Below, piece after piece: positions 2,719 through 41,108 of a DNA stretch of 41,914 bases (its first letter is position 1; every line of letters begins with the position of its first letter). The position numbers and the translations under genes are program-made. This stretch comes from Coxiellaceae bacterium UBA6002 (GTDB lineage Bacteria > Pseudomonadota > Gammaproteobacteria > UBA6002): positions 1-41,914 of the forward strand of contig DJAM01000148.1 in the NCBI GenBank assembly GCA_002429595.1. The letters are read 5' to 3'. The notes under the pieces were generated by a model. The model had not been told where the DNA came from. It made no database searches and saw only the letters and a list, made by a program, of their open reading frames with translations.

Positions 2719-4920
2719 TTGATAATTAAAGAAAATTGTATCTTACAAGTCGCTTTAGCTACGCCCATTCGAAAAACGTTTGATTATCTGCCGCCTGAGC
2801 CTTTTAATCCACAAGCCCTAAAATCTGGCATTAGAATCAAAGTACCGTTTGGCCGGGGAGAGAAGGTGGGTGTCTTATTAAACATTAAAACAGAAAGTCA
2901 TCTTCCTAAAGCCAAGCTGAAACATGCCATTAGCGTTTTAGATCCAGTTCCGCTGTTCGATCAGTCGATTATGATGCTTTACCAATTTGCAAGTCAGTAT
3001 TATCAACATGCAATGGGTGAAATCATTTTCGCAAGTCTGCCTCCTTTGCTAAGAGATGGTCAGCCTGCCAGCTTACCTGAAGAAATTATTTTTATCTTAA
3101 CTGAGTTAGGAGCAAAAACCTCCGAAGAGGCTTTTCGCCATGCGGTTCAACAACGAAAAATAATGACTTTATTAAATGCACACCCCAATGGTTTATCTCG
3201 AGATGAGATCCTCGCAAATGGGGGAGAACAAAAAGCCTTAACGGCGTTGCTCGCAAAAGGCTATCTGAAAAAATATGTCCTAAAACGCACCATGGTTACC
3301 GGTAAGGTTCAAAAGCATTTACCTTTGAATGAGTATCAACAAACAGCAGTTGCTGCGATTACGGGACAGAAAGGTTTTGCAACTTATTTGCTAGAAGGAG
3401 TGACGGGTAGCGGTAAAACCGAAGTTTATTTACAGTCTATTGAGGCCGTTCTAAAAAATAATAAACAAGCCTTAGTTCTCGTTCCTGAAATAGGACTTAC
3501 GCCGCAAACTGTGGCTAGGTTTCAAGAACGTTTCAATTTACCGATCAGCATTTTGCATTCCGGCTTAAACGATAAAGAACGGAATAACGCGTGGTTATTA
3601 GCCTCAGATGGTACCGCTCGAATTATTATTGGCACTCGCTCCGCTGTGCTCACTCCTTTGCCGGCTTTGGGACTGATTATTCTTGATGAAGAACATGATG
3701 TTTCTTTCAAACAGCAATCTGGCTTTCGTTATTCGGCAAGAGATTTAGCAATTATGCGTGCCAAGCTAACAGATGTACCCGTTGTTTTGGGGACAGCAAC
3801 ACCGTGTTTAGAATCGTTGTTTAATGTAAAACAAAAACGCTTTTTGCATCTCAATTTACCAGTAAGAGCAGGGCAATCCATTGCCCCGAGTTTTCATCTC
3901 ATCGATGTTCGTAGCACAAAGTTAGAAGAGGGATTTTCTCCTGCTATTCTCGAGCAAATGCAAAAACATTTGGGTAACGGTGGCCAGGTTTTAATTTTCT
4001 TAAATAGACGTGGCTATGCGCCAACTTTGTTGTGTCATCAGTGTGGTTGGATAGCGAGTTGTTCGCGTTGTGATGCACGGCTAACATACCATGCCGAGTT
4101 AGAATATTTAATTTGCCATCACTGTGCGACAAATTATCGAATTAACAAAAAATGTGGTGCTTGCCATAGTAGAGAATTATTGCTTCTAGGCGTGGGGACA
4201 CAACGGGTAGAAAAATTTCTAACACATCATTTTCCTCTCGCTCACATCACTCGAATTGATCGTGATAGCACACGCAAGAAAGGAGCTATGGCAAAAATGC
4301 TCGCACATGTCCAAAGTGGTGAGAGCAATATTTTAATTGGGACTCAGATGTTGGCCAAAGGTCATCATTTTCCTGACGTAACGATGGTAGTCATTACCGA
4401 TATCGATACTCAGCTATATAGCACCGATTTTAGAGCCTGTGAGCGCTTAGGACAGCTTATCGTCCAAGTGGCCGGTCGTGCAGGTCGCAGCGAAAAACCC
4501 GGCGAGGTTTATTTGCAAACACATAATCCAACGCATCCATTGCTACTGCAATTAATCAAAAGTGGTTACAGCCGTTTTGCAGAACAGTTATTAAAGGAAA
4601 GAAAATCAGCAGAATTGCCGCCTTTTTCGCATCTGGCATTATTTAGAGCACAAGGGACACATCAAAGTTTAGCGCAGGAATTTTTAACAGAAGTCCGCAA
4701 ATTATTTTTAGACGATCAAAATATCAGCATTTTTGGTCCAATTCCGGCATTAATGGAAAAGAAGGCAGGCAAATTTCGAGCACAACTTTTGGTACAAGCA
4801 AAAAAACGCGTCTATTTACAAAAAATATTACAAGATAAAATGTCGATTATTGAAAATCTACCTTCTGCCCGCAAAGTTCGTTGGTCAATCGACATTGATC
4901 CAATTGATGTGCTCTCTTGA
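2719..4920 (+). CDS. priA: Primosomal protein N' (PriA helicase)
   Basis: 733 aa. Walker A GVTGSGKTEVY. DExH-like LIILDEEHD. Zn-binding Cys cluster (CHQCGWIASCSRCDARLTYH...CHHC...CGAC). Apparent TTG start preceded by GGAGG (2704-2708). Confidence 0.9.
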   Translation: MIIKENCILQVALATPIRKTFDYLPPEPFNPQALKSGIRIKVPFGRGEKVGVLLNIKTESHLPKAKLKHAISVLDPVPLFDQSIMMLYQFASQYYQHAMGEIIFASLPPLLRDGQPASLPEEIIFILTELGAKTSEEAFRHAVQQRKIMTLLNAHPNGLSRDEILANGGEQKALTALLAKGYLKKYVLKRTMVTGKVQKHLPLNEYQQTAVAAITGQKGFATYLLEGVTGSGKTEVYLQSIEAVLKNNKQALVLVPEIGLTPQTVARFQERFNLPISILHSGLNDKERNNAWLLASDGTARIIIGTRSAVLTPLPALGLIILDEEHDVSFKQQSGFRYSARDLAIMRAKLTDVPVVLGTATPCLESLFNVKQKRFLHLNLPVRAGQSIAPSFHLIDVRSTKLEEGFSPAILEQMQKHLGNGGQVLIFLNRRGYAPTLLCHQCGWIASCSRCDARLTYHAELEYLICHHCATNYRINKKCGACHSRELLLLGVGTQRVEKFLTHHFPLAHITRIDRDSTRKKGAMAKMLAHVQSGESNILIGTQMLAKGHHFPDVTMVVITDIDTQLYSTDFRACERLGQLIVQVAGRAGRSEKPGEVYLQTHNPTHPLLLQLIKSGYSRFAEQLLKERKSAELPPFSHLALFRAQGTHQSLAQEFLTEVRKLFLDDQNISIFGPIPALMEKKAGKFRAQLLVQAKKRVYLQKILQDKMSIIENLPSARKVRWSIDIDPIDVLS

Positions 4921-5840: not shown

Positions 5841-8800
5841 ATGAAAAAATGGATGTTAACGCTTATCTCTCTTGGTTATATCAGTCCCATTTTTGCTACA
5901 GCGCATGATTCTTTTCTGGTCACTGGCGAGACTCTAAATGAAGTCGCCAACTATGACCACGTTTTTGATATGCCGAATTTCTTTACGCGTGTTTTTCCGC
6001 AAAACTTAAACCCAAATCTAGTGATAGTACCTAGGACTAATAGTGGCTTCATATTCGGACTAACAGGTGCCTTGCTCCGGTCATTTGATAACCAGACCGA
6101 CTATGTTATTCCCGATACAAGTCCACTGCCTTTCTTGCCAAGCCCTAATAGTAATATTCGTGAGATTAGTCCAGATTACAATTTTGGTTATGGCGGTTAT
6201 CTCGGGTATGTCTATCCATATACTGGCAGAGATATTAAATTTAGTTTCTTCTTGTTTGATGAGAATGTGAATGACTCGATCACGGCGCCTACCGATGGCA
6301 CCTTGTGGACGCCTCTTGCGCTTTATGATCAAACGACAGAAGCTGATGCAGCATTTGCGAAATACACGACCAATTTTTATTCCGCCAAATTAATGATGGG
6401 TCAAAATATTGTTGCCGGCACTCGCCTTCGAATTCACCCCTCACTAGGTTTGCAATATGCAGGTATCAATCGTGAGTTAAAAACAAACTATGGTGCGGCA
6501 TCAGGTATTCTTGATGTGCTGCCATTTGGTGATTCTGTTGTTAAGCAGAAAAGTAACTTCAATGGTATCGGTCCTGCAATACAATTCGATTTAAGTTATT
6601 TCCTTGCGCCACATTTCGCATTAACCGGACATTTACTTAACTCGATTTTGGTCGGTACGATCACGAGCGAAATAAACTACGCAGAAGATCTTTTACTGAC
6701 CACGCCACTTGATTCTGCTCCTGCCAACACGGTAATTAATCTTACATCAGCGAATCGTTGCGTTGCTAATTTAGATGGGAAGTTAGGTTTCTGCTTCGAA
6801 TATCCATTCTGCGGAACTAACACCAAAATGGAGATCGAAATTGGCTACGAGTTTAATCACTTCTTTAATGCAATTGATACCTATCGAAGTGCTGGCGGCG
6901 CATTTTTTGTTGATGAAACCGATCCGCCAGTTTATGTTGACACACCATTGCACATCAAAAACCCCCATGATTTTACAATGGATGGCCCCTATTTAACTTT
7001 GGGGCTTTCTGGTATTTCTTGCCCAGATAATGTTGTGATAGATCCAGTCTGTGTGACTGTTCCGAAACTAGATGGTGGTTTTGTATTTAGTATAGGAGCT
7101 ATTTATTATCGCATGAATCATAACCATACTGATTTTGCGATTTTAGATCCTACCCCGACACTGATTACCGATCCTCTAGTTGATCCAACTGTACCACCTG
7201 TCTTTGTGCCAAGCACTAAATCTACGCTTAAAAATATCGAAAGTGATAGCTCTTACGGCTTAATGTTTGATTTGGGTTATATATTCAGAAAAACTCCGTA
7301 CGACATGACTTTCCACTTTGAAGGCTTGAACGGACAAGATAAAGAACGAGTGACAGCTCCAGCAGCAGGCACTGTGTGGCCTATACTGGTGACACCATTT
7401 TTTAATCCTACACAAACTGGTATGTTCGCAACGCGAGCACATGCAAATCTGAAAAATACATATTACGAGGCGCATCTTGATGTAGGTCAAGCTATTAGCG
7501 CCGACAATTTAGCCTGGTTTAGATTATTTGAAGGGATTGAGTACGCCCGTCTTTATTCTGATCTTCATGTTACTTACGATAATGTCACTACTAATCCATT
7601 CGCGCTTTTCGATGAAATCCCTGATCCGACGTTAACTTATCGAAGGGTTGATGCCGTTTCAAAGAGCCGTTTCAATGGCTACGGTCCTCGAGTTGGTATA
7701 GACATGGCGCTTCCGATGGGTTGGATCAATCTAATTGCCGAGCTAGCAGGTGGTTTCCTCTTTGGAAATATTGACTCAACTTATAGCAACACTTACGAAT
7801 CAGGTGTTTTAACAGGCGCCGATCCTGATGTTGTGTTAGTGCCAGGAGGCAATTTAGGCGCTTCGTTAGACTCACAAAATCAGGTGGCCCCATTTTTAGA
7901 TACAAAAGTTGCGATTGGTTATGGCTTCGATTTTTTTGCAAGAACCAAATGGACGGTTGAATTAGGGTTTAAAGCAGCTCATTACTTTAACGCAGCAACA
8001 ACTTTCCGCCATGTTACTAATAATTCTGCTGATTTCGTTAAGCAAGTTGATGACATCACAGTCAATGGACCTTACTTAAATGTGTCGGTCTTTGGCTTTG
8101 GTGCTTGCCCACCAGACTGTTTACCACGGGATCCTTTCTGCGTCATTGTGCCTGAACTCAAAGGTGGCTTAGAGCTAGCGATTGAATATCTCTATTTGCG
8201 TCCCAATGTGGTTAACGTTGATTACGCTTTAGTTGATCCTGCACCAACATTTGTACCAAATTTGGTTGAACCACCTGTGTTTGCAGATGGTTTTGAATTT
8301 AATCCAAGTGCTAGATCAAGGGTTCAGTTCTTAACGCCGCAATTTGCTTCTGGCTATCGTGCACATGTAGGCTATATCTTTCCACTGACCTCTAATGACA
8401 TTTCAGTTAACTTTGTACAATACGAAGCAAGTTCTTCTGATCATGCTTCAGCGCCTGCCTTTGGTTTGCTTTGGACTATTACTAATGGCAGTTTTGGCTC
8501 TGTCTCAAGTGTTGATCCAACTTTCTTCCCGATCGCAGCCGACCATGCCAACGTGAATGTAGATTTTAATTGGCAGACTGGCAATGTAGAGATGGGTAAA
8601 CGAGTTAAATTTTATAACCTCATGCTGAGAGCTTTTGCAGGTCTGACATACGCTAAAGTGACTGAAAATATCAAGATTACTTATCTAGATGGTTTTTCAG
8701 TGGGTCCCGATACTCTTATTCCAATTGCCTCTGATGCTATTCACCAAGGCAATGACTTCTCCGGATTTGGTCCTCGCTTGGGTGTTGCTGGTGACTTCGG

Positions 8801-9143
8801 TTTTGGCTGTGGCTTTTCGCTGGTCGCACTGGTTGGTACTGACTTGCTAGTTGGCACATTCAATAGTAGTCTCGAAGAGCTTTCTTCAAGTGGTGATTCA
8901 GCAACCTTAAACCCAACGAAAAGAACTCGTTTGGCACCTGCCGTCGACGGCAAGATCGGAATCGCCTACACAATTGCTCTGAAAAACTGTGCTCAAATTA
9001 GTCTTGAAGGCGGTTATCAAATGAATCATTATTTTAATGCGAAAGATAGCTTGCGCTTCACCAGTAATTCCAATGCCTTCATCAAACAAGAACAAGATGT
9101 CAGTTTTGATGGTTGGTATGGCAGATTACAAATTAATTTCTAA
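5841..9143 (+). CDS. Outer membrane protein with three tandem Legionella-type MOMP (porin) domains and a signal peptide
   Basis: 1100 aa. Sec signal MKKWMLTLISLGYISPIFATA. Three ~360-aa repeats start at about nt 6180, 7250 and 8346. Each has Legionella MOMP hallmarks: an aromatic N-terminal strand (NFGYGGYLGYVYPY / SYGLMFDLGYIF / ASGYRAHVGYIF), NG(I/Y/F)GP(A/R)(I/V/L)G, and (Y/F)xxNHYFNA. The final residue is F (Q-I-N-F). Pro-rich linkers carry Cys pairs. Confidence 0.8.
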   Translation: MKKWMLTLISLGYISPIFATAHDSFLVTGETLNEVANYDHVFDMPNFFTRVFPQNLNPNLVIVPRTNSGFIFGLTGALLRSFDNQTDYVIPDTSPLPFLPSPNSNIREISPDYNFGYGGYLGYVYPYTGRDIKFSFFLFDENVNDSITAPTDGTLWTPLALYDQTTEADAAFAKYTTNFYSAKLMMGQNIVAGTRLRIHPSLGLQYAGINRELKTNYGAASGILDVLPFGDSVVKQKSNFNGIGPAIQFDLSYFLAPHFALTGHLLNSILVGTITSEINYAEDLLLTTPLDSAPANTVINLTSANRCVANLDGKLGFCFEYPFCGTNTKMEIEIGYEFNHFFNAIDTYRSAGGAFFVDETDPPVYVDTPLHIKNPHDFTMDGPYLTLGLSGISCPDNVVIDPVCVTVPKLDGGFVFSIGAIYYRMNHNHTDFAILDPTPTLITDPLVDPTVPPVFVPSTKSTLKNIESDSSYGLMFDLGYIFRKTPYDMTFHFEGLNGQDKERVTAPAAGTVWPILVTPFFNPTQTGMFATRAHANLKNTYYEAHLDVGQAISADNLAWFRLFEGIEYARLYSDLHVTYDNVTTNPFALFDEIPDPTLTYRRVDAVSKSRFNGYGPRVGIDMALPMGWINLIAELAGGFLFGNIDSTYSNTYESGVLTGADPDVVLVPGGNLGASLDSQNQVAPFLDTKVAIGYGFDFFARTKWTVELGFKAAHYFNAATTFRHVTNNSADFVKQVDDITVNGPYLNVSVFGFGACPPDCLPRDPFCVIVPELKGGLELAIEYLYLRPNVVNVDYALVDPAPTFVPNLVEPPVFADGFEFNPSARSRVQFLTPQFASGYRAHVGYIFPLTSNDISVNFVQYEASSSDHASAPAFGLLWTITNGSFGSVSSVDPTFFPIAADHANVNVDFNWQTGNVEMGKRVKFYNLMLRAFAGLTYAKVTENIKITYLDGFSVGPDTLIPIASDAIHQGNDFSGFGPRLGVAGDFGFGCGFSLVALVGTDLLVGTFNSSLEELSSSGDSATLNPTKRTRLAPAVDGKIGIAYTIALKNCAQISLEGGYQMNHYFNAKDSLRFTSNSNAFIKQEQDVSFDGWYGRLQINF

Positions 9144-20237: not shown

Positions 20238-20612
20238 TTAAGAATGCATCGTCATAATTAACAGCAGCGCACCGACCACTGCAAAATTAGCATAAAAAAC
20301 AAAAGAAACATTCCTTCTTTGTAACCCTTCCATTGTCCAGTAGTTACAAATGATAAAGTTAACTGCAAGGGTGAAAATAATTAATGCTAGAGCCGCAAAC
20401 ATCGAATAAAAATTAAAGATGATTGCAAGACTGCCTAGTATCTCAGTAACAATGACTAAATATAAAACAATTCTAGGAAAAGGAATTTTTTTTGCTTTGA
20501 TCAAGCCTAACAATTTGTCTTTGTTATAAGCGTTATTAATGCCTGCTTTAAGGAAATAAAAAGCAAGTAGAAAACGACCGAGTGTAGCTAGGTAGAAAGT
20601 CCAATCAGTCAT
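20238..20612 (-). CDS. DoxX-family membrane protein
   Basis: 124 aa, 3-4 TM. N-terminal LGRFLLAFYFLKAG is typical of DoxX. Confidence 0.65.
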   Translation of the reverse strand: MTDWTFYLATLGRFLLAFYFLKAGINNAYNKDKLLGLIKAKKIPFPRIVLYLVIVTEILGSLAIIFNFYSMFAALALIIFTLAVNFIICNYWTMEGLQRRNVSFVFYANFAVVGALLLIMTMHS

Positions 20613-20705
20613 GGGGGAATCTCAACGTAAACTGAAAGTTCTATATTACAAAAAAGTCTCGCAAATTGCGATTAAAGTCTTATAAAACCAGAGATATATT
20701 TTCTT

Positions 20706-20813
20706 TCCCGTACACGTTCCCGTTCACGAATCATATAGGCCACTTGGATAAAGAGTACGAGATGTAACTAAGTTCTTATTGGTCTGTATTATTATTCGGG
20801 AACGGGAACGTTA
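20706..20813. repeat. Long-spacer inverted repeat cgttcccgttcacgaat ... attcgggaacgggaacg (16/17 match, ~68-nt spacer)
   Basis: Read directly from the sequence. Lies between the doxX start and the minus-strand terminator. Confidence 0.4.
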
Positions 20814-20814
20814 A

Positions 20815-20858
20815 AATAAAAAAGGGGGTGCTAAAGATAAACTCTAGCACCCCCTCCC
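20815..20858 (-). terminator. Intrinsic terminator oriented for minus-strand transcription
   Basis: Minus strand gggagggggtgcta-gagtttatctt-tagcacccccTTTTTTATTTT: a 10-bp GC-rich stem (20824-20833 / 20846-20855) followed by a U-tract. The plus-strand side lacks a U-tract. Confidence 0.6.
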
Positions 20859-21090
20859 AGGCAATCCTTGCCTGAAAACTCATCAAACAGTCCCTGTAGA
20901 ACTCACTCCCTTAGAAATTGAATAACTTTCCATTTGGCACTTACCGAAACCGGCTTGTTGCAGACCCTTGCATTCACTCCTCCAAGTTCCTTGTCTTTAC
21001 TTCCTTGCTAAGCCCTAAGCTCATCCATTAACCCCGAAGGCACTCTAATTGATATTTCAGCTCATACAAGTACTACAGGTATAAATCAGT
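20815..21090 (-). ncRNA. Candidate purine-rich, GGA-motif-rich sRNA (CsrB/RsmY/RsmZ-like CsrA-titrating RNA?)
   Basis: The minus-strand sequence upstream of the terminator has no ORF and about 10 GGA motifs in ~230 nt, many in A/CAAGGA or AGGGA context: caaGGAag, caaGGAac, ttGGAGGAg, aatGGAaag, aaGGGAg, caGGGAc, caaGGAtt, ctGGGAggg. Local GC is above surrounding intergenic DNA. The 5' end is not defined. Confidence 0.35.
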
Positions 21091-21234
21091 TAATGTTAAG
21101 GTTTTGTTAAAATCTTAAGTTGAAAAAATTTTTTTAAAAACATGGAGTTGACAAATTTGAGGCCGAATTAAAAATCTTTTTGCCAGCACAACTATGGAAG
21201 ATGTCTTACAAATTCATGGGAATTTTGATTACAA

Positions 21235-21280
21235 AAGACTAAGAAGGTTTTTAAGAAAATGGCTTAGTCTTTTTTTAAAT
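21235..21280. terminator. Hairpin overlapping the msrB stop codon, with T-run on the plus side
   Basis: aagactaag (21235-21243) / cttagtctt (21263-21271) followed by ttttttaaat. On the minus strand it is followed by ttgtaat. It could terminate msrB (minus) and/or a short plus-strand transcript starting near TTGACA 21148-21153. Confidence 0.5.
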
Positions 21281-21623
21281 CCAAAGAAGCAGAATTGATG
21301 CAATAGCGCAATCCGGTAGGGTTTGGACCATCTGAAAATACGTGACCTAGATGAGCTCCACATTTATTGCAGGTCACTTCGACTCTACGCATGTTGTGGC
21401 TGTTATCTTCCTCTTCAGAGGTTGCATTGCTGACTGGTTGATAAAAGCTTGGCCAACCCGTGCCAGAATCATATTTGGTTTCAGAAGAAAACAAAGGAGT
21501 ACCGCAACATTTACAAACATACATCCCCTGCTCTTTGCAATTCCAATATTTTCCAGTAAAAGCAGGTTCAGTGCCTTTCAAGCGGCAAATGGCGTATTCT
21601 TCAGGGGTTAATTTCTTTTCCAA
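21264..21623 (-). CDS. msrB: Peptide methionine sulfoxide reductase MsrB (Zn-binding type)
   Basis: 119 aa. Two CxxC pairs ([21 protein letters not shown]) and the catalytic RYCINSASL. Confidence 0.9.
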
Positions 21624-40569: not shown

Positions 40570-41108
40570 CAATCATCAGCCCATCGTTTTCGTTTAGAAA
40601 GCTTCTTGTCGATACGTTGTCTTTTAAGCTTCGAAAGTCGATCAATGAAAATAATCCCATTGAGATGATCAATTTCGTGTTGTAAGAGCTTAGCCATATA
40701 GCCTTCGCCCTCTATTTCAAACGGTTTGCCATGGCGATCAAATGCCTTAACAATGACCTTATAGGCACGAGTGTTAATCACTTCATAAATGCCACCAGGG
40801 ACGGACATGCAGCCTTCTGGCTCTTCGAGTTGACCTTCTGAAAAGATGACTTCGGGATTGATCAAACAAAGTGCCGAGTCCTTAGGTGGATCCTGTTGTG
40901 CTAGGCGATAGTCATAAAGGACGGTGATTTTTTTAGGGTGTTGAAACGCGAGCTGTGTGGCGGCGAGGCCAGCACAATTTTCTGTATTGAGCAGTGTTTC
41001 CAACATGTCATCAACGACTTTTTGTAACTCTTCTCCAAAATCGGTTACATACTCTCCCTTCTTTCCTAATCCAGGGTCAGGATATTGTAAGATAGGTATA
41101 ATTGGCAT
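40569..41108 (-). CDS. def: Peptide deformylase
   Basis: GLAATQ, EGCMSVPG and HEIDHLNG motifs. Start probably ATG 41108 (MPIIPILQYPDP); the track start at 41123 has no RBS. Confidence 0.9.
   Translation of the reverse strand: MPIIPILQYPDPGLGKKGEYVTDFGEELQKVVDDMLETLLNTENCAGLAATQLAFQHPKKITVLYDYRLAQQDPPKDSALCLINPEVIFSEGQLEEPEGCMSVPGGIYEVINTRAYKVIVKAFDRHGKPFEIEGEGYMAKLLQHEIDHLNGIIFIDRLSKLKRQRIDKKLSKRKRWADD

What the first reader, a model, noticed from the sequence alone, without database searches (positions are those of the whole stretch)
20815..21090. Intergenic GGA-motif-rich candidate sRNA with a strong intrinsic terminator (CsrA/RsmA-sponge-like)
The 650-bp doxX-msrB spacer contains no ORF. 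Its minus strand reads as a purine-rich RNA with about 10 GGA motifs in ~230 nt. Many occur as CAAGGA or AGGGA, the CsrA-binding flavour. At this base composition about 3 would be expected by chance. The RNA ends in a GC-rich hairpin followed by UUUUUUAUUUU (20815-20858). Local GC is clearly higher than in the neighbouring AT-rich intergenic DNA. This is what CsrB/RsmY/RsmZ-type regulatory RNAs look like. It does not resemble tmRNA, RNase P RNA, SRP RNA or 6S RNA by the motifs I know.
Basis: partly seen in the sequence, partly recalled or inferred. Interest (0 to 1): 0.6.

Follow-up and report, generated by a model that had tools for sequence, protein, structure and literature searches.

The report
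CsrA-sponge small RNA with UvrY/LetA-type promoter

Summary
The minus strand of 20815-21090 carries 10 GGA triplets and ends in a strong intrinsic terminator. This stretch has the densest A(R)GGA content in the whole 42-kb window.

I recovered six homologous copies from relatives whose EpmA is only 61-71% identical. All sit just upstream of doxX, even where the upstream gene is rsmE instead of msrB. They conserve eight GGA sites. Two or three of these lie in hairpin loops, and one of those hairpins shows compensatory base changes.

All seven copies conserve a weak sigma-70 promoter: TTGNNN, 16 nt, TA[G/C]AGT. This puts the start near 21035, giving an RNA of about 220 nt.

About 167 nt upstream of that start lies an 18-nt box with a TGTAAK half-site 17 nt before it. 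In one relative the box matches the footprinted UvrY site of E. coli csrC at 16 of 18 positions. The E. coli site has the same half-site arrangement and almost the same distance to the start.

No Rfam family matches. All five published sequence criteria for CsrA-regulating sRNAs are met.

Verdict: a new, lineage-specific member of the CsrB/CsrC/RsmY/RsmZ class. Expression and CsrA binding are untested, and I could not check whether the genome has csrA.

The parts
20813..21035 (-). Predicted sRNA transcript, about 220 nt. The start (about 21035) is inferred from the conserved -10 box. The 3' end lies in the U-tract at 20823-20813. It carries 10 GGA, starting at 21026, 21004, 20990, 20983, 20980, 20931, 20909, 20893, 20867 and 20857.
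   Evidence: Sequence. GGA counts. Homologues in six other loci score nhmmer E 1e-36 to 1e-51. Alignments A3 and A4.
21017..21035 (-). 5' hairpin GGG.UUA-AUGGA-UGA.CUU, with GGA (21026-21024) in the loop.
   Evidence: Unpaired probability of the GGA is 0.91 in the window and 0.46-0.94 in the five other relatives that have this hairpin. 77% of cells are paired, with one-sided changes only. L102 lacks this segment.
20902..20914 (-). Middle hairpin CU(N)A-(N)GGAG-U(N)AG, with GGA in the loop. The window copy has one A.G mismatch.
   Evidence: Four of six pairs show changes on both sides across relatives (C-G/U-A/U.G). 83% of cells are paired.
20858..20874 (-). Last hairpin CAGGCA-AGGAU-UGCCUG. 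This is a CsrA-type A(N)GGA loop directly abutting the terminator.
   Evidence: The stem is invariant in 7 of 7 (L101 is one pair shorter). The GGA has unpaired probability 0.98-1.0 in all 7.
20813..20858 (-). Intrinsic terminator: a 17-pair GC-rich stem (20858..20820) plus the U-tract TTTTTTATTTT.
   Evidence: Terminator scan. Four stem pairs show compensatory changes among relatives.
21042..21069 (-). Inferred weak sigma-70 core promoter: -35 TTGTAT (21069-21064), a 16-nt spacer, and -10 TAGAGT (21047-21042).
   Evidence: TTGNNN, exactly 16 nt, then TA[G/C]AGT in 7 of 7 loci. There are no indels, while the spacer sequence varies. It matches 7 of 12 consensus positions, so the promoter scan did not report it.
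21193..21210 (-). 18-nt UvrY/GacA/LetA-type box TGTAAGACATCTTCCATA, centred about -167 from the predicted start.
   Evidence: Conserved at -175 to -178 in five loci, at -163 in L101 and at -201 in L102. The L082 version TGTGAGATAATGCCGATA matches the footprinted UvrY site of E. coli csrC (TGTGAGACATTGCCGATA; PMC4682653) at 16 of 18. It is the only hit in 6.8 kb, against 0.01 expected. In E. coli csrC the box starts at -168.
21216..21233 (-). Upstream half-site TGTAAT(CAAAATTCCCAT), 17 nt before the box (23 nt start to start).
   Evidence: TGTAAK or TGTGAG sits 23 nt before the box in 6 of 7 loci. E. coli csrC has TGTAAG 16 nt before its box.
21092..21106 (-). Conserved promoter-proximal element CAAAACCTTAACATT, at about -70 to -57. 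Its function is unknown.
   Evidence: CTTAA is conserved at -65 to -67 in 6 of 7 loci.

Best explanation
The spacer encodes an independently transcribed, non-coding RNA of about 220 nt on the minus strand, from about 21035 to about 20815. It most likely works as a CsrA/RsmA sponge.

The RNA displays about eight conserved GGA sites. Several have the A(N)GGA form and sit in hairpin loops; the rest lie in unstructured linkers. These would bind and titrate several CsrA dimers, relieving CsrA control of its mRNA targets.

Transcription would start from a weak sigma-70 promoter. It would depend on a GacA/UvrY/LetA-family response regulator bound to two tandem sites about 160-200 nt upstream. In most relatives an IHF-like site lies in between. 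The RNA would therefore accumulate when the cognate sensor kinase (BarA/GacS/LetS type) is active.

Shown here: the sequence features, their conservation, the base-pair covariation, and the match to a footprinted UvrY site.

Inferred: the transcription start, CsrA binding, and regulator dependence.
For: - Seven homologous copies exist in genomes whose EpmA proteins are 61-71% identical.
- GGA density is 4.2-7.0 per 100 nt, against 5.7 for E. coli CsrC. This is the top A(R)GGA window of the 42 kb.
- The last hairpin CAGGCA-NGGAU-UGCCUG is invariant, with the GGA unpaired at 0.98-1.0.
- For the four named helices, 90% of cells are paired against 42-63% in slid controls. Eight pairs change on both sides; 0 of 500 shuffles reach that.
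- GGA triplets are more accessible than other GG triplets in all 7 copies: 0.51-0.70 against 0.24-0.47.
- A strong terminator is present.
- The -35/16 nt/-10 arrangement is conserved in 7 of 7.
- The upstream 18-mer plus half-site match E. coli csrC in sequence (16 of 18), arrangement and distance.
- An IHF-like WATCAANNNNTTR lies at -105 to -119 in 6 of 7.
- The upstream gene differs (msrB or rsmE) while the promoter stays in place.
- No ORF is conserved.
- All five criteria of Kulkarni et al. 2006 are satisfied (PMC1488887).
- The host looks Legionellales-like: a 1100-aa protein carries three Legionella_OMP domains. In Legionella pneumophila, of that order, the LetA-RsmX/Y/Z-CsrA cascade is established (PMC5928044, PMC5780407).
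Against: - No Rfam family matches, including CsrB, CsrC, RsmY, RsmZ and RsmX.
- The GGA excess over the local composition is only marginal on its own (P about 0.05).
- Predicted GGA accessibility beats dinucleotide shuffles only weakly (z 0.2-1.3).
- The right half of the upstream box is a poor palindrome. This is true of csrC as well.
- The window's own copy of the IHF-like site is degenerate.
- No csrA, letA/gacA or barA gene is present in the DNA I hold. Whether this genome has the protein partners is unknown.
- There are no expression data. The start site is inferred only from conservation.
Confidence: 0.8

Rival explanations
1. The RNA is a cis-acting 5' leader or attenuator of the doxX-DUF2387-NDH-2 operon. 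The terminator would be conditional, and read-through would control doxX.
For: The element lies upstream of doxX on the same strand wherever the downstream flank can be seen (6 of 7 loci; the L082 contig ends first). This holds even where the upstream gene has changed. The gap from terminator to doxX start is as short as 59-63 nt in L086 and L102.
Against: The terminators are long, perfect and U-rich in every copy. I noticed no conserved alternative pairing for the terminator arms, though I did not test this formally. The sequence between terminator and doxX is unconserved and varies from 59 to 200 nt. The window has a further terminator-like hairpin before doxX. The far-upstream UvrY-type box and the repeated GGA sites are hallmarks of sponge RNAs, not of leaders. 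The linkage to doxX rests on only two gene arrangements, which means one rearrangement.
Confidence: 0.07
2. It is an Hfq-dependent base-pairing sRNA that acts on mRNAs through a seed region. The GGA motifs would be incidental to its purine-rich composition.
For: It has a terminator hairpin with a long U-tail, typical of Hfq-binding sRNAs. The GGA count is only about 1.6 times the local-composition expectation.
Against: Conservation falls on the GGA sites themselves and on GGA-presenting hairpins, not on one single-stranded seed. The promoter carries a UvrY/GacA-type box, and the direct targets of such boxes are overwhelmingly Csr/Rsm RNAs (PMC4682653).
Confidence: 0.07
3. There is no functional RNA. 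The region would be conserved regulatory DNA, a small-protein gene, or a remnant.
For: There is no expression evidence. Mechanical ORFs of 24-37 aa exist.
Against: ORFs differ in frame, position and sequence among the seven copies. Compensatory base-pair changes in two helices indicate selection on RNA structure. A promoter-to-terminator unit is conserved.
Confidence: 0.04

Closest known systems
E. coli/Salmonella CsrC (Rfam RF00084)
   Same: - Size class: 246 nt against about 220 nt.
- GGA density: 5.7 against 4.5 per 100 nt.
- A GCAAGGAUUG site lies near the 3' end.
- It ends in an intrinsic terminator.
- The upstream 18-mer is of the weakly symmetric 'csrC type' (TGTGAGACATTGCCGATA against TGTGAGATAATGCCGATA in L082 and TGTAAGACATCTTCCATA in the window).
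- A TGTAAG half-site lies 16-17 nt before the box.
- The box starts at -168 in E. coli and at about -175 here.

   Different: There is no detectable sequence or covariance-model homology of the RNA body; the only CsrC match is 8 bits on the terminator. The neighbouring genes differ (yihA/yihI against msrB or rsmE and doxX). The host lineage differs. An IHF-like site is present here in most relatives, whereas none was apparent at csrC and csrC expression did not need IHF.
Legionella pneumophila RsmX/RsmY/RsmZ (LetS/LetA-CsrA cascade)
   Same: It is the same kind of RNA in what is probably the same order of bacteria. [quoted passage not shown]
   Different: From my own recollection, not tested here: RsmY and RsmZ are about 110-130 nt, roughly half the length of this RNA. 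I had no RsmX/Y/Z sequences to align, so homology is untested. Only one copy was seen in the DNA held here, whereas Legionella has two or three.
Pseudomonas RsmY/RsmZ (Rfam RF00195, RF00166) and E. coli CsrB (RF00018)
   Same: Multiple GGA hairpins followed by a terminator. A GacA/UvrY box lies far upstream, with IHF between the box and the promoter (csrB, rsmZ; PMC4682653). In csrB, a second partial site lies 5 bp after the 18-mer. That gives the same 23-nt periodicity as the two tandem sites here.
   Different: There is no covariance-model match. The box here lacks the near-perfect palindrome TGTAAGN6CTTACA / TGTGAGAGATCTCTTACA. Its length is intermediate between RsmY/Z and CsrB.

Membership tests
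CsrA-regulating sRNAs (functional class; five criteria of Kulkarni et al. 2006, PMC1488887) | Located in an intergenic region | tested here: met
   It lies in the 651-bp msrB-doxX spacer, which has no conserved ORF. It is also intergenic in all six relatives.
CsrA-regulating sRNAs (functional class; five criteria of Kulkarni et al. 2006, PMC1488887) | High concentration of AGGA/ARGGA (GGA) motifs | tested here: met
   10 GGA in about 223 nt. This is the highest A(R)GGA count of any 220-nt window on either strand of the 42 kb. Relatives carry 8-15 GGA. The excess over local composition alone is marginal (P 0.05).
CsrA-regulating sRNAs (functional class; five criteria of Kulkarni et al. 2006, PMC1488887) | Rho-independent terminator at the 3' end | tested here: met
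   A 17-pair stem plus U-tract. It is conserved with compensatory changes.
CsrA-regulating sRNAs (functional class; five criteria of Kulkarni et al. 2006, PMC1488887) | Predicted structure shows repeated GGA in loops and free regions | tested here: met
   Three conserved hairpins have GGA in the loop, and the other GGAs lie in linkers. GGA unpaired probability is 0.51-0.70 against 0.24-0.47 for other GG triplets. The excess over shuffles is weak.
CsrA-regulating sRNAs (functional class; five criteria of Kulkarni et al. 2006, PMC1488887) | Conserved upstream site of csrB, csrC or rsmY type (UvrY/GacA binding site) | tested here: met
   A csrC-type 18-mer plus half-site, conserved in position in the relatives. 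It matches the E. coli csrC site at 16 of 18 in L082 and 13 of 18 in the window.
CsrA-regulating sRNAs (functional class) | Binds and sequesters CsrA/RsmA; the genome encodes CsrA and a BarA/UvrY-type two-component system | not testable with these tools
   tblastn found no csrA in the window or the fetched loci. No such regulator is among the Pfam-scanned window ORFs.
Rfam clan CL00106 families (CsrB RF00018, CsrC RF00084, PrrB_RsmZ RF00166, RsmY RF00195, RsmX) | Match to the family covariance model at or above its gathering score | tested here: not met
   No hit at gathering score in the whole window. At E<=10, the only hit is CsrC at 8 bits against a gathering score of 61, and it falls on the terminator.
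Legionella RsmX/RsmY/RsmZ | Sequence or structure homology to the L. pneumophila RNAs and their LetA consensus box | not tested
   No reference sequences were available in the tools or in the papers read.

The most novel reading that the evidence does not exclude
The RNA is more than a free-standing sponge. It is functionally coupled to the doxX-DUF2387-NDH-2 genes that follow it on the same strand wherever that flank can be seen. CsrA occupancy of the invariant GGA hairpin, which directly abuts the terminator, would tune read-through. One locus would then act both as a CsrA sponge and as a CsrA-sensing leader for a redox/respiratory operon.
Probability: 0.07. Interest if true: 0.55.

Novelty: new member of a known kind. 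Interest (0 to 1): 0.35.

Why it matters
The finding gives an uncultured, Legionella-like lineage a concrete handle on its Csr/Rsm global switch. In Legionella that switch controls the change from replicative to transmissive state. The finding also adds a family that Rfam-based annotation misses.

It also shows that the 'csrC-type' UvrY site architecture (an 18-mer plus a half-site about 170 nt upstream) is shared between Enterobacteria and a distant gammaproteobacterial lineage. The RNA bodies themselves have diverged beyond detection. Promoter architecture may therefore be a better search key for these RNAs than the RNA sequence.

It does not change how this class of regulator is understood.

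Tried and rejected
That protein is too conserved: the best 80 hits were unrelated phyla at 56-72% identity, with no useful synteny.

(2) The metagenome scan with TTCAGGCANGGATTGCCTGG returned 7 hits. All lie in what read as unrelated protein-coding sequence and none is homologous.

(3) Three EpmA relatives at about 61% identity were examined (L087, L088, L089). In L087 and L088 msrB abuts a bPH_2 gene with no spacer. L089 has no msrB next to efp. The RNA was instead found next to doxX elsewhere in the genome of L087 (L102).

(4) I considered an alternative promoter: -35 TTAACA/TTAATA with -10 TAGTAC, starting near 21065. I rejected it because the spacing has indels and the key -10 positions (A2, T6) are not conserved.

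(5) The long 5' outer stem GCCUU/AGGGC from single-sequence folding would need bases lying immediately after the -10 box. It is therefore probably not part of the RNA.

(6) Searches for a second copy (nhmmer) and for csrA (tblastn) in all held DNA found nothing.

(7) There is no conserved ORF.

(8) A literature search for the MAG accession found nothing. The exact L. pneumophila LetA consensus and the RsmY/Z sequences could not be retrieved.

(9) I did not build a covariance model, because no public collection remained that could be searched with it.

Full report
**1. The observation**

The spacer between msrB (21264-21623, minus; SelR domain) and doxX (20238-20612, minus; DoxX domain) is 651 bp. 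Read on the minus strand, 20815-21090 contains 10 GGA triplets: CAAGGA three times, AGGGA twice, AUGGA twice, and others. It ends in a 17-pair GC-rich hairpin (20858..20820) followed by TTTTTTATTTT. GC is 0.43-0.49 here, against 0.24-0.33 in the DNA just upstream.

At the local purine-rich composition the expectation is 6.1, and 5% of mononucleotide shuffles reach 10. So the count alone is only modest evidence. Even so, only 0.27% of all 276-nt windows on either strand reach 10 GGA. For the A(R)GGA motif, this is the single best 220-nt window in the 42 kb.

**2. Database identity**

No Rfam family reaches its gathering score anywhere in the window. A permissive scan of 20600-21300 gave only noise. 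It included an 8-bit CsrC match that covers just the terminator.

**3. Relatives**

The window is a MAG contig. Its EpmA has few close relatives. Fetching the contigs of the closest ones showed the same msrB-spacer-doxX arrangement in L085 and L086. L082 shows msrB and the spacer before its contig ends. The spacers align with blocks of near identity, although the flanking proteins are only 64-71% identical.

Relatives at about 61% EpmA identity lack the spacer at msrB. A DoxX search then recovered three further loci: L100, L101 and L102. L102 comes from NCBI assembly GCA_013697705.1. In these three, the same element lies upstream of doxX but downstream of rsmE instead of msrB.

A profile of the seven copies finds each with E between 1e-36 and 1e-54. 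It finds nothing else in about 0.7 Mb of held DNA. The element is therefore conserved and single-copy in what I could see. It travels with doxX, not with msrB.

**4. Promoter and boundaries**

All seven loci have TTGNNN, exactly 16 nt, then TA[G/C]AGT. There are no indels, while the spacer sequence varies. In the window these are TTGTAT (21069-21064) and TAGAGT (21047-21042). This matches 7 of 12 consensus positions, so it is weak, as expected for an activator-dependent promoter. The scan tool did not report it.

An alternative promoter further upstream has variable spacing and unconserved key positions, so I rejected it. The start is therefore inferred at about 21035. The RNA would be about 220 nt; the relatives range from 177 to 215 nt.

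**5. Upstream regulatory sites**

At -175 to -178 from the inferred start in five loci lies an 18-mer of the form TGTRNGA.AT.T.CC.ATA. It is at -163 in L101 and -201 in L102. The window copy is TGTAAGACATCTTCCATA (21210-21193). A TGTAAK or TGTGAG half-site lies exactly 23 nt further upstream in six of seven loci.

Zere et al. 2015 (PMC4682653) footprinted UvrY on an 18-nt inverted repeat far upstream of csrB and csrC. For E. coli csrC it is TGTGAGACATTGCCGATA, with a TGTAAG half-site 16 bp upstream. I read this locus in MG1655. The sequence there is TGTAAG, 16 nt, then TGTGAGACATTGCCGATA, and the box starts at -168.

The L082 box, TGTGAGATAATGCCGATA, matches the E. coli site at 16 of 18 positions. 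It is the only match with up to 3 mismatches in that 6.8-kb locus, where 0.01 is expected. Sequence, tandem arrangement and distance therefore all agree with an experimentally defined UvrY site.

An IHF-like WATCAANNNNTTR, in the same orientation, lies at -105 to -119 in six of seven loci. It is degenerate in the window itself. This recalls csrB and rsmZ, where IHF acts between the far-upstream site and the promoter. A further conserved element, AAAACCTTAATATT at about -70 to -57, is unexplained.

**6. RNA anatomy**

Eight GGA sites are conserved in the alignment.

- The last hairpin, CAGGCA-NGGAU-UGCCUG (20874-20858), is invariant. Its GGA is unpaired with probability 0.98-1.0 in all seven.
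- A 5' hairpin (21035-21017) shows AUGGA in its loop in six copies.
- A middle hairpin, CU(N)A-NGGAG-U(N)AG (20914-20902), keeps pairing through C-G/U-A/U.G exchanges.

For these three hairpins and the terminator together:

- 90% of cells form standard pairs, against 42-63% when the partners are slid.
- Eight pairs change on both sides, four in the middle hairpin and four in the terminator.
- 0 of 500 shuffles reach that number.

The remaining GGAs lie in weakly structured linkers. By hand inspection only, a central non-GGA hairpin also appears to be conserved in position but not in sequence.

GGA triplets are more accessible than other GG triplets in every copy: 0.51-0.70 against 0.24-0.47. 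The excess over dinucleotide shuffles is small (z 0.2-1.3). The claim that GGAs sit in loops therefore holds firmly for three sites and loosely for the rest. No ORF is conserved.

**7. Mechanism**

The best-supported reading is a CsrA/RsmA-sequestering RNA, transcribed under a GacA/UvrY/LetA-type response regulator. It satisfies all five sequence criteria that Kulkarni et al. 2006 give as defining for this class (PMC1488887). These are:

- an intergenic location;
- a high A(R)GGA density;
- a terminator;
- GGA in loops and free regions;
- a csrB-, csrC- or rsmY-type upstream site.

The host appears Legionellales-like, since a 1100-aa ORF carries three Legionella_OMP domains. In Legionella pneumophila the LetS/LetA-RsmX/Y/Z-CsrA cascade is established.

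What is not shown: expression, the start site, CsrA binding, and the presence of csrA and the regulator in this genome. Neither gene is in the DNA I hold.

**8. Rivals**

- A conditional leader of the doxX operon is suggested by the constant linkage to doxX and by short gaps in some relatives. The terminators look unconditional, the intervening DNA is unconserved, and the linkage rests on a single rearrangement.
- An Hfq-type base-pairing sRNA is possible. It does not explain why conservation falls on GGA hairpins, or why there is a UvrY-type box.
- A peptide gene or a non-functional remnant is contradicted by the covariation and by the lack of any conserved ORF.

**9. Comparison and novelty**

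The RNA works like CsrC, CsrB, RsmY and RsmZ, and resembles CsrC most in size and promoter architecture. It is not a member of any Rfam family by covariance model. Homology to the Legionella RsmX/Y/Z RNAs could not be tested.

I file it as a new, lineage-specific member of a well-known kind. Interest is moderate to low. It is useful for annotation and for studying an uncultured lineage, and the conservation of the csrC-type site architecture is notable. It is not surprising to a specialist.

Noticed in passing
window 20714-20735 and 20790-20811: A 22-nt inverted repeat (91% complementary, arms 54 nt apart) lies immediately downstream of the sRNA terminator. It includes tandem TTCCCGTNCACG units and is unique in the window. 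The relatives have much shorter terminator-to-doxX gaps (59-108 nt against 200 nt), so it looks like a small inserted hairpin element.
   Followed up: partly
window 20659-20671 (minus strand): A second terminator-like hairpin, TCGCAATTTGCGA followed by a T-run, lies 46 nt upstream of the doxX start codon. It would stop any read-through from the sRNA.
   Followed up: no
window 5841-9143 (+): A 1100-aa ORF carries three stretches of the Legionella_OMP domain (PF05150, E 4e-126). This is an unusually long, repeated major-outer-membrane-protein homologue, and it points to a Legionellales-like host.
   Followed up: no
window 21233-21243 and 21263-21273: A perfect 11-nt inverted repeat (AAAAGACTAAG / CTTAGTCTTTT) spans the msrB stop codon and abuts the upstream TGTAAT half-site. 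It may be the msrB terminator.
   Followed up: no
L102 about 4630-4680 (upstream of the sRNA): The IHF-like AATCAATCATTTA lies inside a short tandem repeat (TAAATGATTGATTC, 2-3 copies). This relative therefore carries two or three copies of the candidate site.
   Followed up: no
L085 11642-13255: A hipA/hipB toxin-antitoxin pair is inserted between ligT and the amino-acid permease. It is absent from the window and from the other relatives.
   Followed up: no
window 40681-40698 (+): This is the only other match in the window to the box pattern TGTRNGN7CCNTA (TGTAAGAGCTTAGCCATA). It lies inside an ORF and is probably chance: 0.3 matches are expected, and 6 of 100 shuffles gave two.
   Followed up: no
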